Shown here: positions 43,737-47,732 of the stretch, piece after piece
Layout: each line of letters begins with the position of its first letter
How positions within the stretch are numbered: the stretch's first letter is position 1
Source of the DNA: Spirochaetota bacterium
Lineage (GTDB): Bacteria > Spirochaetota > UBA4802 > UBA5550
Reading direction: 5' to 3'
DNA: 54,363 nt
Assembly: GCA_050298055.1 (NCBI GenBank)
Contig: JBNKTL010000032.1
Span: forward strand, 1-54,363
The notes under the pieces: generated by a model
Databases searched by the model: none
Seen by the model: only the letters and a program-made list of their open reading frames with translations
Told to the model about the DNA's origin: nothing
Translations under genes and position numbers: made by a program

Positions 43737-45460
43737 CTCCTGCGAAGAGACCCATGTTCATACCCACAACAGCTGAAGAAGTCAGGGAGAGAAACTGGGA
43801 CGCCCTGGACATTGTCCTTGTTACGGGGGACACCTATATTGACAGCTATTATATTGGCGCCGCGGTCATCGGGCAGCTCCTGATCAGCAGGGGGTATAGG
43901 GTGGGGATCATCGCCCAGCCCGATATTACCGGCAGCAGTGATATCACCCGCCTGGGGGAACCTCTCCTCTTCTGGGGCATTACATCCGGTTCCGTTGATT
44001 CACTGGTATCAAACTATACGTCAACGGGCAAAAGAAGAAAGCGGGATGACTTTACTCCCGGCGGCGGGAACACCAGAAGGCCGGACAGGGCCCTGATAGC
44101 ATACGCCAACCTCATCCGGAGGTACTTTAAGAACACCGTGCCCCTGGTCCTGGGCGGACTTGAAGCAAGCCTCCGGAGGATATCACACTACGACTGCTGG
44201 TCCGGCTCTGTCCGGAGGTCGGTGCTCTTTGACGCCAAGGCCGATATCCTTGTCTACGGAATGGGGGAGTCACAGGTCCTGGAATTATCGGAAACATTAA
44301 AGAAGCACGAGAAAGACTATCACGAACACCTGCAAAAGATCAGGGGGATATGCTACATATCCAAAACCGTGAGAGATGATTATATCCCCCTCCCCTCCTA
44401 TGAAGAGACGGCATCTCACAGGGACCTTTTTGCGGAAATGTTTACACTCTTCACCCGGAACTGCGACCCCTTTTCCGCCTCCGGGCTCATACAGGGGCAT
44501 GGAGAGAGGTTCCTGGCGCAGAACCCCCCGACTTTTCCTCTCAGGCAGGATGAACTGGACACGGTCTACACCCTTCCCTATGAGAGGAGGGTCCACCCCT
44601 TTTATGAGAAGATGGGAAAGGTCAGGGCCATGGACACCATCCGGTTCTCCATAACAACACACAGGGGGTGCGTGGGCCAGTGCGGATTCTGCAGCATCAC
44701 CCTCCACCAGGGGAGGAGAATTGTTTCACGAAGCGAGGAGTCAATTATTAGCGAAGCGGAGGGACTGGTAAAACATCCCGATTTCAAAGGGATCATATCC
44801 GACCTGGGAGGGCCCACCGCCAACATGTACGGCGTTGAATGCGGCATAAACAGGGAGAGTGAATACTGCCCTTCCCGAAGCTGCATGGTCCCCTCTGTTT
44901 GCGGGAACCTGAAGCTCAACCACAGGGGCCAGTTAAAGCTCCTGGAGAAGCTGAGAAAGACCAGGGGGATCAGGAAGGTCTTTGTCTCATCGGGGATCAG
45001 GCACGATCTTGTTCTTGCTGACGGCAAAGAGGGAACGAGATACCTGGAAGAAGTGATGAAACACCACATCTCCGGCCAGATGAAGATCGCGCCGGAACAC
45101 ACGGAAGGAGCCGTGGTCAGTCTCATGGGAAAGTGCGGCCGGGACGTCCTTGATGAATTTATCGATCTCTTTAACGGCATAAAAAAGAGGACCGGGAAAA
45201 AGATCTTCCTTACCTACTACTTCATGGCGGCCCATCCCGGATGCGGGGAGGATGAGATGAAAAGACTGAAAAGGTATACGCAGAAGAAGCTGAATATGGT
45301 CCCGCGGCAGGTCCAGATCTTTACACCCACACCCTCCACCCTCTCAACACTTATCTACTCCACAGGGACCGATCCCACCTCCGGGAAGAAGGTGTTTGTT
45401 GAAAGGGATACAAAGAAAAAGGTCCGCCAAAAGGAGATCATCACGGGGAAAAGGAATTAA
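43733..45460 (+). CDS. ygiQ: YgiQ/UPF0313-family radical SAM protein
   Basis: VTGDTYID, LGGLEASLRR, HRGCVGQCGFCSI (CxxxCxxC), DLGGPTANMY, KIAPEH, AAHPG. Confidence 0.92.
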   Translation: MTPAKRPMFIPTTAEEVRERNWDALDIVLVTGDTYIDSYYIGAAVIGQLLISRGYRVGIIAQPDITGSSDITRLGEPLLFWGITSGSVDSLVSNYTSTGKRRKRDDFTPGGGNTRRPDRALIAYANLIRRYFKNTVPLVLGGLEASLRRISHYDCWSGSVRRSVLFDAKADILVYGMGESQVLELSETLKKHEKDYHEHLQKIRGICYISKTVRDDYIPLPSYEETASHRDLFAEMFTLFTRNCDPFSASGLIQGHGERFLAQNPPTFPLRQDELDTVYTLPYERRVHPFYEKMGKVRAMDTIRFSITTHRGCVGQCGFCSITLHQGRRIVSRSEESIISEAEGLVKHPDFKGIISDLGGPTANMYGVECGINRESEYCPSRSCMVPSVCGNLKLNHRGQLKLLEKLRKTRGIRKVFVSSGIRHDLVLADGKEGTRYLEEVMKHHISGQMKIAPEHTEGAVVSLMGKCGRDVLDEFIDLFNGIKKRTGKKIFLTYYFMAAHPGCGEDEMKRLKRYTQKKLNMVPRQVQIFTPTPSTLSTLIYSTGTDPTSGKKVFVERDTKKKVRQKEIITGKRN

Positions 45461-45483
45461 TTATTTCATATAATCTTTTTAAG

Positions 45484-45501
45484 ATTTGCCACAGAGGCAC
45501 A
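45484..45501 (+). repeat. Left arm of the REP-like element interrupted by the IS110
   Basis: atttgccacagaggcaCA joins CAgagaag at 47052; inverted partner ctctgtgtctctgtggcaaat at 47205-47225. Confidence 0.75.
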
Positions 45502-45619
45502 CCCATTAAAGGGCGAGTCAATAGAAAAAACACCCCTCTGGCAAAAAATATTTTTTTTGTTGCTTAAAGTTAAGAACTAATGCTTCTTCCGTTGCATTGC
45601 GCCTTTGACTTCATTATTT

Positions 45620-45915
45620 CGGTTGCAGTCAGACTTAAATGATCTGCTCCATACACCCATCCGGATCAAGACTGAATGCTTAAAAAAGTCTTTAATGTCA
45701 TCCGTCCCTGGTTTTAAAAACCCCAGAAAACCGTCAGTTCCATGCTATGTCCAATTGATAAAGAACAGAAATCACGGTTTTTAACCAGCCTCTTTACGGT
45801 TCATAGCATAGGCAAATCAGAATGAAACAAAAGTTGCGATCTTTTAAAATGCAACAGTATCCAATCAGAGAAAATAGATTTTAACCAGTGCCTCACCACG
45901 GTTTACTGTTGCAGA
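45620..45915 (-). ncRNA. Putative bridge/seek RNA with target-binding and donor-binding loops
   Basis: Stem TGCAACAGTA/TACTGTTGCA encloses GAGGCAC and TTCTCTG (both target flanks); ATGGGTG matches the element end; boundaries approximate. Confidence 0.8.
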
Positions 45916-45922
45916 TAAAATA

Positions 45923-46939
45923 TTAAGAAAAGAGCTTCTTCTTATCAAATGATACTCCATCCCTCATAATATAATAAGCTGCTCTTGCTAATTTGTTACT
46001 CAACGCTTTTAAAGCGACAATTCTATTTGTCTTTCTCATTTTACGTTGATAAAATTCCTTTGCCTCGGGACAATAACGTATAGCATAATTTGCAGCTTCA
46101 ATAAAGGCCCATCCTAAATATTTATTACCATTTTTCCTATTGTTCTCACCTTTCTTTTTATTATTACTTGTTTTCACACTCTGAACACATCTGCAATATG
46201 AAGAATAATTCTTTACTGTAGCAAACCTGAGAATGTCTCCAGTTTCAAGAATTATTGTTGTCCCGAGAATATTCCCAATACCCGGAATAGTCAATAGCTG
46301 TTTGTATTTCTCCCGGACTTTGCATTGTTTAAGAACTTCTTTTTCAATTTCCATAGCTACTTTATCCAGGGAATGAATCATTGCAAGGTTGCTATGCGCC
46401 ATCAGGTTCAAATTATGATCTGTAAACATTAAATCAATATCACTTGCTGTAAGCTTTATAACATCATTTCCGGAGATATTAATGCCAAGATTTCGTGTAA
46501 TCATACTTTCAAGACTTAATATTTGCGCTGTGCGCTGTTTCACAAAAAGAATCCTCCTGCGAAGTAAATCCCTTAGTGACCTTTGCTCTTTTGGATATAT
46601 ATATCCTTTTGGTAATATGTTCAAACGTTCCATGTTTGCCAGCCAGGATGAGTCACTTTTATCGTCAGTTTGTTTTAAACCGTTATATTGTTGTATAGCT
46701 GATGGATTTGCCAAATGAATTTTAAACCCATCTTCTTGCAATCCATCTACAAGCCAGTACCAGTTATAAGTTGATTCAACAACTATAGCTTCCAGATCTT
46801 CTTTATAGGGTTGTAATGTACTGAGAATTAACTGTAAATTATTGTTAATTCGTTTGCTGAAAATCCTTCTGTCTTTTTCATCAATTATTGCTAAAAAAAT
46901 ATTACTTGAATGTAAATCAATACCTCCGTAAAGTTTCAC
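45923..46939 (-). CDS. IS110-family DEDD transposase (bridge recombinase)
   Basis: GIDLH, VVEST, KQTDDKSD, TIPGIG, SYC...TSN, KNGNKYL..AFIEAA, KLARA; GTG start with GAGGAGG. Confidence 0.95.
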   Translation of the reverse strand: MKLYGGIDLHSSNIFLAIIDEKDRRIFSKRINNNLQLILSTLQPYKEDLEAIVVESTYNWYWLVDGLQEDGFKIHLANPSAIQQYNGLKQTDDKSDSSWLANMERLNILPKGYIYPKEQRSLRDLLRRRILFVKQRTAQILSLESMITRNLGINISGNDVIKLTASDIDLMFTDHNLNLMAHSNLAMIHSLDKVAMEIEKEVLKQCKVREKYKQLLTIPGIGNILGTTIILETGDILRFATVKNYSSYCRCVQSVKTSNNKKKGENNRKNGNKYLGWAFIEAANYAIRYCPEAKEFYQRKMRKTNRIVALKALSNKLARAAYYIMRDGVSFDKKKLFS

Positions 46940-47191
46940 TGAGCACCTCCTCGTGTTTAAATTTTGGCACTTGTATAGTTTACTCTATACTGTGGACCTG
47001 CAAAATTTATCGCAGGGGGTGCTCATTAAGTAAAGCCCTTTAGATGATTATCAGAGAAGAAGAATGATAAAGGGTCAAAAGATTGTCCCGGATTTACACG
47101 AATGATAATAGATTATTCATTTTTATTAATGAATATCCGTAGCTGGATGGATTCAAACGTAATAATACGAAATCACAAAAAAACATTGCTA

Positions 47192-47225
47192 CACTCTCTG
47201 TGAACTCTGTGTCTCTGTGGCAAAT
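47192..47225 (-). repeat. Right arm of the CACAGAG-type REP-like element
   Basis: cactctctgtgaactctgtgtctctgtggcaaat, inverted relative to the reconstructed atttgccacagaggcacagag. Confidence 0.75.
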
Positions 47226-47369
47226 TTATTAATTTTATGAATAAGTACTAAATTTTTATATTTTTTTAAAAAAAATTTTTATAAAACCGCTTCCCCGATC
47301 GTATTAATATTAAACACCAAATCTAAAAAATCATAGCGCTGTGATTGTAATGTAAAAAAGGAGTTAAAA

Positions 47370-47732
47370 ATGGGCAACTTAGATAATGTAACAATTGAGG
47401 GTTTTGCAACGCATGCCCCGTCTCTGAGAAAAACTAAAACAGGAAAGGATGTATGTAATTTTTCACTTGCTATCAATCACTATTCGAAGGCTGACTCGAA
47501 ACCTCAGGTCTCATATATCGATGTTGAGACATGGGAAAAACTTGCCGGAGTCTGTTCAGACAACATAACAAAGGGAAAAAGAGTTATGGTCATTGGTGCT
47601 TTAAGGCAGGACAGGTGGGAGGGCCAGGATGGTAAAACTCAATCAAAGATCAAGATTGTCGGAAGAGAAATCAGGTTTCTCGAATCGCTCAAGTCAAACA
47701 ACGAGAACGAGAAGCATGCGGAAGCGGTTTAG
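47370..47732 (+). CDS. ssb: Single-stranded DNA-binding protein (short form)
   Basis: NFSLAIN, IDVETWEKLA, KGKRVMVIGALRQDRWE..DG; AAGGAG RBS. Confidence 0.9.
   Translation: MGNLDNVTIEGFATHAPSLRKTKTGKDVCNFSLAINHYSKADSKPQVSYIDVETWEKLAGVCSDNITKGKRVMVIGALRQDRWEGQDGKTQSKIKIVGREIRFLESLKSNNENEKHAEAV

What the first reader, a model, noticed from the sequence alone, without database searches (positions are those of the whole stretch)
45699..45913. IS110 bridge RNA appears to carry a tandem array of 2-3 target-binding modules with different guides
Seen: on the minus (transposase) strand, the 3' non-coding end repeats one scaffold. M1 (45850-45913) is stem-AACCG tggtgaggca CTGG ttaaaat CTA ttttctc TG attgga-stem. 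M2 (45742-45809) has its own stem ATGCTATG/CATAGCAT around AACCG taaagagg CTGG ttaaaaa CCG tgatttc TG [ttctttatca] attgga. M3 (45699-45739) is degenerate, with no clear outer stem: AACTG acggtttt CTGG ggtttttaaaa CCA gggacgga TG. The scaffold motifs are conserved while the guide positions differ. Known: the best-characterised bridge RNAs (e.g. IS621) use one target loop plus one donor loop. Inference: this element has a CRISPR-array-like set of target guides. M1 specifies the current site (TTCTC-TG-TGCCTC). By the same rule M2 would specify about ATTTC-TG-CCTCT (register ambiguous because of the 10-nt insert) and M3 about ACGGA-TG-AAAACC, which resembles CACGGATGAACAC-type intergenic repeats. 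The array could broaden the target range or record past targets.
Basis: partly seen in the sequence, partly recalled or inferred. Interest (0 to 1): 0.92.

Follow-up and report, generated by a model that had tools for sequence, protein, structure and literature searches.

The report
Three-loop guide RNA of an insertion sequence
The repeated motifs are the conserved loops of a single guide RNA of a jumping gene: one reads the insertion site, one reads the element's own ends, and a third loop, which seems to follow the same insertion site, has no assigned role; it is not a stack of alternative targets.

Summary
The three motif copies are real and clustered far beyond chance. They lie in the 3' non-coding region of a 1552-bp IS1111-group element (window 47051-45500, minus strand; ISGsu4-like DEDD transposase).

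M1 is the target-binding loop. Its two guides match the flanks of both copies in this genome, which sit in a dispersed host repeat.

M3 is not a target module. Its "guide" is nearly invariant in relatives and pairs with the element's own left end, with compensatory changes in five lineages. Its partner, GAUGGGUG at 45661-45654, equals the right end. Together they form the donor-binding multiloop, closed by a long-range helix with strong covariation.

M2 is present in essentially all ~130 relatives with enough sequence (46-65% protein identity), as a branch of that multiloop. It is a diverged copy of the target loop. Its guide positions vary as much as M1's and follow the same target, mainly the base next to the core and the core itself. 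They do not point to a different site.

So this is a fixed three-loop bridge/seek RNA, not a CRISPR-like array. The sites predicted for M2 and M3 are not repeated or occupied here.

True tandem duplicates of the target loop exist in 11 of 160 relatives, but not in this window.

The parts
45500..47051 (-). The whole IS1111-group insertion sequence (1552 bp, counting one copy of the TG core at the 3' end)
   Evidence: The second genomic copy (C70:1-196, 98% identical) becomes similar exactly at the left end. The left-end and right-end motifs are conserved in relatives.
47035..47051 (-). Left end ATAATCATC plus the subterminal inverted repeat TAAAGGGC (47042-47035)
   Evidence: Read directly. The repeat pairs with GCCCTTTA at 45514-45507. 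The two repeats covary in relatives, for example TAAAGGTC/GACCTTTA and TAGCCGGC/GCCGGCTA.
45923..46939 (-). DEDD transposase gene, 338 aa
   Evidence: PF01548 (E 4e-14) and PF02371 (E 4e-16). NF033542 'IS110 family RNA-guided transposase', 175 bits against a cut-off of 140. Plasmid homologues are annotated as ISGsu4 family.
45847..45916 (-). M1, the target-binding loop. Outer stem; 5' guide GAGGCAC (45894-45888), complementary to the top strand right of the core; 3' guide UUUUCUC+UG (45874-45866), same sense as the left flank plus core
   Evidence: Flanks in the window are TTCTC-TG / TGCCTC, and the C70 copy has GTCTC-TG. Model R1 scores it 54.9 bits. All 11 pairs of the outer stem show changes on both sides.
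45812..45820 (-). 5' strand (CUGAUUUGC) of the long-range helix P2 that closes the donor-binding multiloop
   Evidence: Pairs with 45647-45639. Seven of 9 pairs show changes on both sides and 89.7% of cells are paired.
45740..45811 (-). M2, an accessory loop resembling the target-binding loop. Own stem CUAUGCUAUG/CAUAGCAUGG; 5' guide-like UAAAGAGGC (45796-45788); inner hairpin UGGUU/AACCG; 3' guide-like GUGAUUUC+UG (45775-45766); linker 45765-45756; AUUGGAC
   Evidence: Aligned in the 62 loci of the first set carrying the M3 anchor (3 of them unreliably) and in 53 metagenome loci. Nine of 11 stem pairs show changes on both sides. R1 scores it 13.4 bits.
45726..45739 (-).
   Evidence: The segment is nearly invariant in relatives. 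Left-end variants are compensated in L028, L031, L034, L078 and L040/L041, and not in L011, L016 and L051.
45709..45725 (-). M3 hairpin (UGGGGUUUUUAAAACCA), the counterpart of the inner hairpin of the target loop
   Evidence: Five of 5 pairs show changes on both sides and 97.4% of cells are paired.
45668..45708 (-). Variable hairpin P5 (GGGAC...GUCUU).
   Evidence: Helix 10: three of 5 pairs show changes on both sides and 97.5% of cells are paired.
45648..45667 (-). Single-stranded GAUCCG, the left-donor guide GAUGGG+UG (45661-45654), then UAUGG. This is the 3' half of the donor-binding loop.
   Evidence: It is identical to the right end ...AATGGG+TG. Entropy is 0.23 bit. GGG changes to GGA in both guide and right end in L021 and L075.
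45639..45647 (-). 3' strand (GCAGAUCAU) of helix P2
   Evidence: The window carries the compensated pair UUUGC/GCAGA where most relatives have UUCGC/GCGGA.
45500..45521 (-). Right end: TTGACT (45521-45516), subterminal repeat GCCCTTTA (45514-45507), then terminal ATGGG plus core TG
   Evidence: Read directly. TTGAC is kept at the same distance from the end in 41 of the 42 right ends listed. Its role as the -35 box of a junction promoter is inferred from Siddiquee 2024 and was not tested.
45457..45499 (-). Right flank: the 3' part of the dispersed host repeat that is the target (TGCCTCTGTGGCAAATCTTAAAAAG...)
   Evidence: Other copies of the repeat at C4, C7 and C70. The 12-mer TCTCTGTGCCTC occurs 15 times in the genome.

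Best explanation
The region 45916-45639 (minus strand) encodes one structured RNA of about 280 nt, the bridge/seek RNA of an ISGsu4-like, IS1111-group insertion sequence. It has three related internal loops with fixed roles. M1 is the target-binding loop: its 5' guide pairs with the top strand right of the TG core, and its 3' guide has the sense of the left flank plus core. A long-range helix then closes a multiloop that forms the donor-binding domain. M2 is a branch of this multiloop. It is an old, diverged duplicate of the target loop, and its guide positions still follow the same insertion site as M1, chiefly the base next to the core, the core itself and the first bases to the right. The M1, M3 and GAUGGGUG assignments are shown by sequence matches and covariation. 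It is inferred that M2 pairs with DNA carrying the left flank plus core, either the target or the element's left junction. In that reading it helps excision or direct strand transfer rather than specifying a second target. The set is not a CRISPR-like array.
For: Element and family. Architecture shared by relatives at 46-65% protein identity. Structure: 92.0% of cells are paired, against 31-40% when partners are slid, and 40 of 51 pairs show changes on both sides. M1 against flanks: 341 of 498 matches, against 200.7 in shuffles (0 of 5000 shuffles reach it). M3 and the downstream guide: entropies 0.75 and 0.23 bit, identity to the ends, and compensations in L028, L031, L034, L078 and L040/41, and in L021 and L075. 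M2: guide entropies 1.22 and 1.42, the same as M1's 1.20 and 1.42. M2's 3' guide against the left flank: 316 of 528 matches, against 238.3 (0 of 5000); position -1 matches at 0.80 against 0.41 expected. The signal survives shuffling within clades: 164 of 288 against 137.7 (0 of 5000). In L122 the core is AG at the junction, in M1 and in M2. L015 and L151 have new right flanks that M2 follows. Within an element, M1 and M2 resemble each other only in the two guide segments, not in the loop between them or in the stems. This genome holds 15 M1-type sites and 0-1 sites of the kinds predicted for M2 and M3. [quoted passage not shown]
Against: M2's 5' guide does not follow the right flank overall: 346 of 584 matches against 334.7 (339 of 5000 shuffles reach it). 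It fails to follow retargeted flanks in L042, L061 and L123/L127. In the window M2's GAGGC matches the flank GCCTC only 1-2 nt out of register. Shuffle tests do not fully remove relatedness. The pairing between the M3 guide and the left end is only 6-7 bp with one fixed mismatch, and it is uncompensated in L011, L016 and L051. No RNA data exist for this organism, so transcription, processing and RNA ends are unknown. Only two copies of the element can be seen in the assembly.
Confidence: 0.72

Rival explanations
1. One reading: M1, M2 and M3 are interchangeable target modules that specify three different sites, widening target range or recording earlier targets.
For: The scaffold is shared. 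M2's guide positions are variable. Relatives with two M1 modules in tandem show that such duplication is tolerated.
Against: The order and number of modules are fixed across relatives. M3 is conserved and complements the element's own left end. M2's guides follow the same target as M1. Own insertion sites fit M1 better in 27 of 37 loci. The predicted M2 and M3 sites occur 0-1 times in the genome and none is occupied.
Confidence: 0.05
2. M2 is only a structural or protein-binding branch of the donor multiloop and never pairs with DNA. Its likeness to M1 comes from common descent and occasional copying from M1.
For: M2's 5' guide shows no significant match to right flanks. M2 does not follow the target in L042, L061 and L123/127. 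The linker after the core would disturb the geometry seen in M1. Duplication of modules is frequent in this region. Siddiquee 2024 reports that the short RNA alone sufficed for ISEc11 transposition (section read).
Against: Similarity within an element is confined to the two guide segments. The loop between them and the stems show none (own -1.94 against cross -1.76, 3956 of 5000 shuffles reach it), which a continuous copying tract would not give. Similarity to M1 and to the flank stops at position -6, where M1's own match to the flank stops. The otherwise invariant UG (40 of 40 in A1) becomes AG exactly where the core is AG.
Confidence: 0.22
3. The classical two-loop reading: M1 is the target loop and M2 is the donor loop, while M3 and the downstream GAUGGGUG are unrelated structure.
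For: M2 follows M1 as the donor loop follows the target loop in IS621. M1 plus M2 span 172 nt, like the 148-172 nt 'long seekRNA' listed in Table 1 of the 2026 review (passage). In the main sequence group, and in the window, M2's 5' segment loosely resembles the left subterminal repeat TAAAGGG.
Against: M2's guide positions are as variable as M1's, while the element ends are conserved. They do not change with the subterminal repeat in the groups with TAGCCGGC or TAGCCAGC. They match flanks, not ends. GAUGGGUG equals the right end and covaries with it, and the M3 guide covaries with the left end.
Confidence: 0.04

Closest known systems
IS1111-group seekRNA / bridge RNA (ISEc11, ISPa11, ISKpn4; Siddiquee et al. 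2024, PMC11187229; Durrant et al. 2024, PMC11208160)
   Same: A DEDD transposase of about 340 aa. A long non-coding region downstream of the gene. Subterminal inverted repeats. A target loop directly after the stop codon, with the top-strand match 5' of the bottom-strand match. Donor-binding nucleotides in a multiloop. A repeat-type target. M1 plus M2 have the length of the reported 'long seekRNA'.
   Different: The transposase belongs to another clade: the best annotated homologues are 'ISGsu4 family', and none of the studied elements was compared directly. The texts I could read assign no function to the part of the long RNA beyond the target loop and do not mention a second loop resembling the target loop. 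Their figures and supplements, which I could not see, may show it.
IS621 bridge RNA (IS110 group; Durrant 2024; Hiraizumi 2024 and 2026)
   Same: Two kinds of internal loop, each with a guide for either strand around a dinucleotide core. Target and donor loops share a fold, which is why M1, M2 and M3 look alike.
   Different: In IS621 the RNA lies upstream of the gene, the guide order is reversed, the donor loop is a simple internal loop, and there are two loops, not three.
Truncated target-loop RNA working together with full bridge RNA in CazIS110-1 'direct transfer' (Sun et al. 2025 preprint, 10.1101/2025.10.25.684509; abstract and section 8 read)
   Same: A pathway in which two target-type loops act together, one on the old left junction and one on the new target. 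This is the kind of role M2 could have.
   Different: There the two loops sit on separate RNA molecules of an IS110-group element. Here they would sit on one RNA. No experiment links M2 to this pathway.
CRISPR and TIGR guide arrays
   Same: A repeated scaffold with variable segments.
   Different: Those arrays have many units, unit numbers that vary between relatives, and unrelated spacers. Here there are three non-equivalent loops in a fixed order, one of which reads the element itself.

Membership tests
IS110 family (DEDD RNA-guided transposase) | N-terminal DEDD/RuvC-like domain plus the C-terminal PF02371 domain | tested here: met
   PF01548 at residues 6-148 and PF02371 at 213-298. NF033542 scores 175.4 bits against a cut-off of 140.
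IS1111 group | Subterminal inverted repeats of 7-17 bp | tested here: met
   TAAAGGGC (47042-47035) pairs with GCCCTTTA (45514-45507), 8 bp. The repeat pairs covary in relatives. The range 7-17 bp comes from a passage of Durrant 2024.
IS1111 group | The longer non-coding region lies downstream of the transposase gene, and the transposase has 330-350 aa | tested here: met
   423 nt downstream against about 112 nt upstream of the gene; the transposase has 338 aa. The criterion comes from Siddiquee 2024, section 6.
Bridge/seek RNA | A target loop with two short segments matching both strands of the target around the insertion point, the top-strand match lying 5' | tested here: met
   GAGGCAC is complementary to G|TGCCTC, and UUUUCUC-UG is the same as the flank TTCTC-TG. 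Across the family M1 matches flanks at 341 of 498 and 335 of 480 positions, with 0 of 5000 shuffles reaching either value.
Bridge/seek RNA | A donor loop with guides matching both ends of the element around the same core | tested here: met
   GAUGGG-UG equals the right end ATGGG-TG. GGUUUUC pairs with G|ATAATC at 6 of 7 positions, counting one G-T pair.
Bridge/seek RNA | The RNA is transcribed, processed and bound by the transposase | not testable with these tools
   No RNA run is listed for this sequence, and Rfam 15 has no matching family.
Junction promoter of circular IS intermediates | A -35 box in the right end and a -10 box in the left end at promoter spacing once the ends are joined | not tested
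   TTGACT lies 15-16 nt from the end, and (G)ATAAT starts the left end, read. The joined sequence was not scanned.
Guide array (CRISPR-like) | Equivalent units, a unit number that varies among relatives, and spacers that specify unrelated targets | tested here: not met
   The three-loop order is fixed. The loops are not equivalent: the M1 model gives M2 13.4 bits and does not find M3. M2 follows M1's target, and M3 reads the donor.

The most novel reading that the evidence does not exclude
ISGsu4-like IS1111 elements use a bridge RNA with three programmable loops. M2, nested beside the donor guides, reads the left flank plus core of the element's current or future site. This places a second target-type loop on the same RNA as the donor guides, so that the old junction and the new target, or the two junctions, can be brought together. 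That would explain both the unexplained 'long seekRNA' and the reported need for correct donor flanks. Natural tandem duplicates of M1 in about 7% of relatives would then be real multiplexed targeting: L040 and L041 are identical copies at two sites, each fitting a different target loop.
Probability: 0.3. Interest if true: 0.75.

Novelty: new variant of a known kind. Interest (0 to 1): 0.5.

Why it matters
Bridge and seek recombinases are being developed as programmable tools for inserting DNA, and work so far rests on a two-loop model taken from IS621. If this large IS1111 clade needs a third loop that follows the target, then reprogramming would have to change M2 together with M1. [quoted passage not shown] For this window the practical result is more modest: the striking motif repeat is the normal anatomy of one guide RNA, not a new kind of guide array.

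Tried and rejected
1. M2 as donor loop, or as reader of the subterminal repeat. In the main sequence group, and in the window, M2's 5' segment resembles TAAAGGG. It does not change in the groups whose repeat is TAGCCGGC or TAGCCAGC, so I rejected this.

2. The M2 linker as a mimic of the left or right end, or as a mask for the M3 guide. There are scattered resemblances (L010, L014, and the group with left end ATAATCATCTAG), but elements with different repeats share one linker (L018 and L030). I did not pursue it.

3. The pairing ACC/GGU between the start of M3 and ACUGGU. No covariation was seen by eye. RNAalifold prefers a local CCG/UGG pairing, which has no change on both sides either.

4. 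Rfam 15 over 45300-47400 gave only a chance mir-880 hit far below its threshold.

5. Single-sequence folding of the non-coding region is no better than shuffles (z -1.04).

6. No RNA holder is listed among the public runs.

7. Contigs of four DNA runs. Joints at 45501/47205 have sides of only 18-24 nt within the host repeat, so they are not usable as empty sites. Loose ends at 47057 repeat the C70 flank. Loose ends at 45500 in X3 and X4 come from relatives with ACCCC flanks.

8. A distant relative at 31% identity (L086, a Vibrio plasmid) has a non-coding region I could not align by eye, so how far the three-loop plan extends within IS1111 stays open. ISEc11, ISPa11 and ISKpn4 were not fetched.

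9. Earlier notes of this scan held nothing on this place or sequence.

10. Literature searches for 'IS1111' with 'bridge RNA', for 'seekRNA', for 'ISGsu4' and for 'IS1111' with 'donor-binding loop' found no text on a third loop.

Full report
**The element.** On the minus strand, an ORF at 46939-45923 encodes a 338-aa protein with the two IS110-family domains (PF01548 and PF02371; NF033542 at 175 bits). A search of the window's own genome found a second, partial copy at the end of contig C70. It is 98% identical and its similarity starts at window 47057. Comparing the two left junctions gives ...TTCTTCTC-TG|ATAATCATCTAAAGGGC and ...GTGTCTC-TG|ATAATCATC.... The right end reads ...TTGACTCGCCCTTTAATGGG-TG|TGCCTCTGTGGCAAATC.

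The element therefore spans 47051-45500. It has 8-bp subterminal inverted repeats, TAAAGGGC and GCCCTTTA. Its 3' non-coding region is 423 nt long, against about 112 nt upstream of the gene. These are the hallmarks of the IS1111 group as given in Siddiquee 2024 (section 6) and Durrant 2024 (passage). The target is a dispersed host repeat...CTCTGTGTCTCTG|TGCCTCTGTGGCAAATCTTAAAAA. Intact copies were fetched as L003-L005, and the 12-mer TCTCTGTGCCTC occurs 15 times in the genome.

**The observation.** Three of them lie within 165 nt here.

**Relatives.** Two scans with the transposase each returned the best 80 loci: the genome collection (575 of 605 stretches confirmed) and metagenomes (567 of 600). 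Protein identity to the query is 46-65%; nothing closer was found.

Printing the DNA after the stop codons showed the same order of conserved blocks everywhere:
- M1;
- M2, with its own signature GCCYAUGCCGUGAGCC...AAUUGGACACGGCAUGG;
- M3, ACCGA-N-GAUUUUCUGGGG;
- a block I call MID, CCUUGAUCC-N-GAUGGGUGACUGGUGCG;
- the right end, TTGAC...CCTTTAATGGGTG.

With fuzzy anchors, M3 was found in 61 of 80 genome-collection loci and MID in 69 of 80. The misses include contig ends (L009, L020, L053, L062) and interrupted or deleted copies such as L024 and L032.

In the metagenome set I left out 4 loci whose gene match runs to the end of the locus (L132, L134, L135, L147). Of the other 76, 65 have at least 320 nt downstream; M3 was found in 52 of these and MID in 60. 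Five lacked both anchors. By eye, L095, L123 and L127 carry diverged versions, L096 ends inside M2, and L154 is interrupted.

**Structure.** I aligned the window with 39 relatives of standard spacing (A1). These came from 43 such loci; L017, L019, L033 and L081 were dropped as copies of L014, L018, L030 and L080. RNAalifold and a count on a structure I named agree. In one search, 92.0% of cells are paired, against 31-40% when partners are slid by 1-3 columns. Forty of 51 pairs show a change on both sides.

The helices are:
- the M1 outer stem (11 of 11 pairs with changes on both sides);
- a long-range helix P2, joining CUGAUUCGC just before M2 to GCGGAUCAG just after MID (7 of 9 pairs; window 45820-45812 with 45647-45639);
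- the M2 stem (9 of 11 pairs);
- the M3 hairpin (5 of 5 pairs);
- a variable hairpin P5.

M1 therefore stands alone. M2, M3, P5 and the single-stranded MID form one multiloop. This fits the published remark that in many IS1111 elements the donor-binding nucleotides lie 'in a multi-loop structure' (Durrant 2024, passage).

**M1 is the target-binding loop.** In the window, GAGGCAC complements G|TGCCTC, and UUUUCUC-UG repeats the left flank plus core. The order, with the top-strand match 5', is the one reported for IS1111 seekRNAs (Siddiquee 2024, section 9). Across 135 loci, M1's 3' guide matches its own left flank at 341 of 498 positions, against 200.7 in shuffles. Its 5' guide matches the right flank at 335 of 480, against 282.0. 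No shuffle in 5000 reaches either value. Most relatives sit in sites of the form AAGAYY-TG|ACCCC; the window's element has been retargeted.

**M3 and MID are the donor-binding loop.**
- *Conservation.* Guide positions of M1 have entropies of 1.20 and 1.42 bit. The M3 loop has 0.75 and MID has 0.23.
- *Right end.* MID's GAUGGG-UG is the right end (A)ATGGG-TG. In the two lineages where the right end reads GGA (L021, L075), MID reads GGA too.
- *Left end.* The M3 loop, GAUUUUC (GGUUUUC in the window), pairs with G|ATAATC. Left-end variants are compensated in L028 and L031 (T5 to C, with A to G in the RNA), L034 (T5 to A, with A to U), L078 (T5 to G, with A to U, a wobble pair) and L040/L041 (A4 to T, with U to A).
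- *Exceptions.* L011, L016 and L051 are not compensated and L060 only in part. Eight loci whose right junction has the core CG keep UG in MID, which a U-G pair allows.
- *Layout.* ACCGA-guide-C-UGGGG...CCAGGGG...guide-UG-ACUGG mirrors M1's AACCG-guide-Y-UGG...CCA-guide-UG-AUUGG. 'gggacgga TG' is the 5' strand of P5, not a guide.

**M2.** M2 could be aligned in all 62 loci of the first set that carry the M3 anchor; the alignment was unreliable in L064, L076 and L078, which I dropped. It was also aligned in 53 metagenome loci.

The M1-only covariance model R1 was built from 39 sequences, with L071 left out because its M1 was misaligned. R1 hits the window's M2 full-length at 13.4 bits (E 0.003 in 451 bases). 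It hits M2 of relatives only marginally (E 0.18-0.9). M2 is thus a diverged paralogue of the target loop.

Evidence that M2's guide positions follow the target:
- *Variability.* Their entropies are 1.22 and 1.42 bit, equal to M1's.
- *Left flank.* M2's 3' guide matches the element's own left flank at 316 of 528 positions, against 238.3 (0 of 5000 shuffles). The effect is strongest at position -1: 0.80 observed against 0.41 expected.
- *Within clades.* The signal survives shuffling within clades defined by left-end type: 164 of 288 against 137.7 (0 of 5000).
- *Right flank.* M2's 5' guide matches right flanks only at 346 of 584, against 334.7 (339 of 5000 shuffles reach it). It does follow M1's 5' guide at positions +1 and +2.

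Individual lineages help:
- In L122 the core is AG at the junction, in M1 and in M2, whereas M2's UG is invariant in 40 of 40 rows of A1.
- In L015 and L151 the right flanks are new (GCGTGC, CCACGT). M2 reads GCACGC and a segment whose complement is CCACAT.
- L088 and L106 share a derived +1 base between M1 and M2.
- Against this, M2 does not follow the new targets in L042, L061 or L123/L127.
- In the window, M2's GAGGC fits the flank GCCTC only 1-2 nt out of register.

Within an element, M1 and M2 resemble each other only in the two guide segments (own against cross score 1.89 against -0.45, and 1.86 against 0.70; 0 of 5000 shuffles each). The hairpin loop between the guides shows no such resemblance (3956 of 5000), nor do the stems (2964 of 5000). 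That speaks against simple copying of a tract from M1.

Own insertion sites fit M1 better than M2 in 27 of 37 loci, M2 better in 6, with 4 ties. M2 is therefore not the main determinant of the site.

ATTTC-TG-CCTCT occurs once in the genome and ATTTC-TG-GCCTCT never. ACGGA-TG-AAAACC never occurs. Shorter versions are scattered in ordinary sequence. Both detectable copies of the element sit in M1-type sites.

**What M2 may do (inference).** Because it follows the left flank and the core, M2 most likely pairs with DNA that carries them. That DNA could be the target or the element's own left junction.

Three published points make an accessory role plausible:
- For IS1111 elements a 148-172-nt 'long seekRNA' of unknown role co-purifies with the transposase. 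Movement needs the donor to be flanked by the correct target (Siddiquee 2024, sections 8 and 14; lengths from Table 1 of the 2026 review). M1 plus M2 span 172 nt here.
- In IS621, excision substrates bind across both loops in an inefficient geometry (Hiraizumi 2026, abstract).
- In CazIS110-1 a second, truncated target-loop RNA cooperates with the bridge RNA in direct strand transfer (Sun 2025 preprint, section 8).

None of these papers, in the parts I could read, describes a second loop resembling the target loop. Figures and supplements were not available and may bear on this.

**Tandem target loops in relatives.** R1 finds two strong M1 modules in tandem in L007, L008, L010, L011, L012, L040 and L041, and in L090, L093, L096 and L097. 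That is 11 of 160 loci, some of them copies or close kin of one another; none has three. L040 and L041 are identical 1921-bp copies in one genome. L040's left flank AAGGTT fits the first module (GAGGTT). L041's AAGACC fits the second (AAGATC). In L010 the second module matches the flank at 9 of 9 positions.

**Verdict.** The region is the normal, conserved three-loop guide RNA of an IS1111-group element: a target loop, an accessory loop that follows the same target, and the 5' half of the donor multiloop. The accessory loop is the part worth an experiment.

Noticed in passing
L007, L008, L010, L011, L012, L040, L041, L090, L093, L096, L097 (first 400 nt after the transposase stop): Eleven of 160 relatives carry two full target-binding modules in tandem with different guides, ahead of the usual M2, M3 and MID blocks. 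Further loci (L044, L049, L063, L092, L129, L133, L140, L141) have a degenerate first module followed by an intact one.
   Followed up: partly
L040:1147-3068 and L041:1147-3068: Two identical 1921-bp copies in one genome sit at different sites. One left flank (AAGGTT-TG) fits the first tandem target loop and the other (AAGACC-TG) fits the second. With only two sites this is no more than suggestive.
   Followed up: partly
window 45457-45499 and 47205-47235; G000 contigs C4, C6, C7, C10, C11, C13, C14, C37, C50, C61, C70, C71, C73: A dispersed host repeat, CCCTCTGTGTCTCTGTGCCTCTGTGGCAAATCTTAAAAA, made of TG(T/C)CTC units. It often occurs in inverted pairs (one inverted copy lies about 150 nt upstream of the element) and serves as the insertion target.
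   Followed up: partly
L037, L053, L057 (about 60 nt upstream of the left end): The family's usual target AAGAYY-TG|ACCCC lies at the 3' edge of long perfect palindromes, GGGGTCAG...CTGACCCC, in several unrelated genomes. These are probably REP-like elements or the ends of another mobile element.
   Followed up: no
L122:2225-2380: A relative whose core dinucleotide is AG instead of TG at the left junction, in M1 and in M2. The contig ends before the donor guide.
   Followed up: partly
L127, L095, L036, L060 (right ends): The last 15-20 nt of the right end are duplicated in tandem (for example TCCTCTAAATGGGTG twice). The subterminal CCC(T)TT of the right end resembles the usual ACCCC right flank, so these may be traces of insertion next to a lone end.
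   Followed up: no
window 45920-45948 (minus strand): A promoter-like site, TTGATA-17-TAATAT, lies at the end of the transposase gene. It would start transcription at the foot of M1. It scores 9 of 12 in an AT-rich stretch where 16 sites were found against 6.6 expected, so the evidence is weak.
   Followed up: no
window 45533-45545 and 45485-45497: Inside the right end, TTTGCCAGAGGGG is complementary (85%) to the flanking host-repeat sequence CCTCTGTGGCAAA, 35 nt away. The meaning is unknown.
   Followed up: no
L032:2511-2780: A deletion derivative: M1 is fused to the region after M3, so M2 and M3 are lost, but the right end is intact.
   Followed up: no
window 45498-46402, in contigs of runs X1 and X2: A variant copy about 95-97% identical is present in the same samples. 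Among the differences listed (74 more were not shown), those in the RNA region fall in the M1-M2 spacer, the M2 stem (a change that keeps a wobble pair), the M2 distal guide and scaffold positions, the M3 hairpin loop and P5. None falls in the M1 guides.
   Followed up: no
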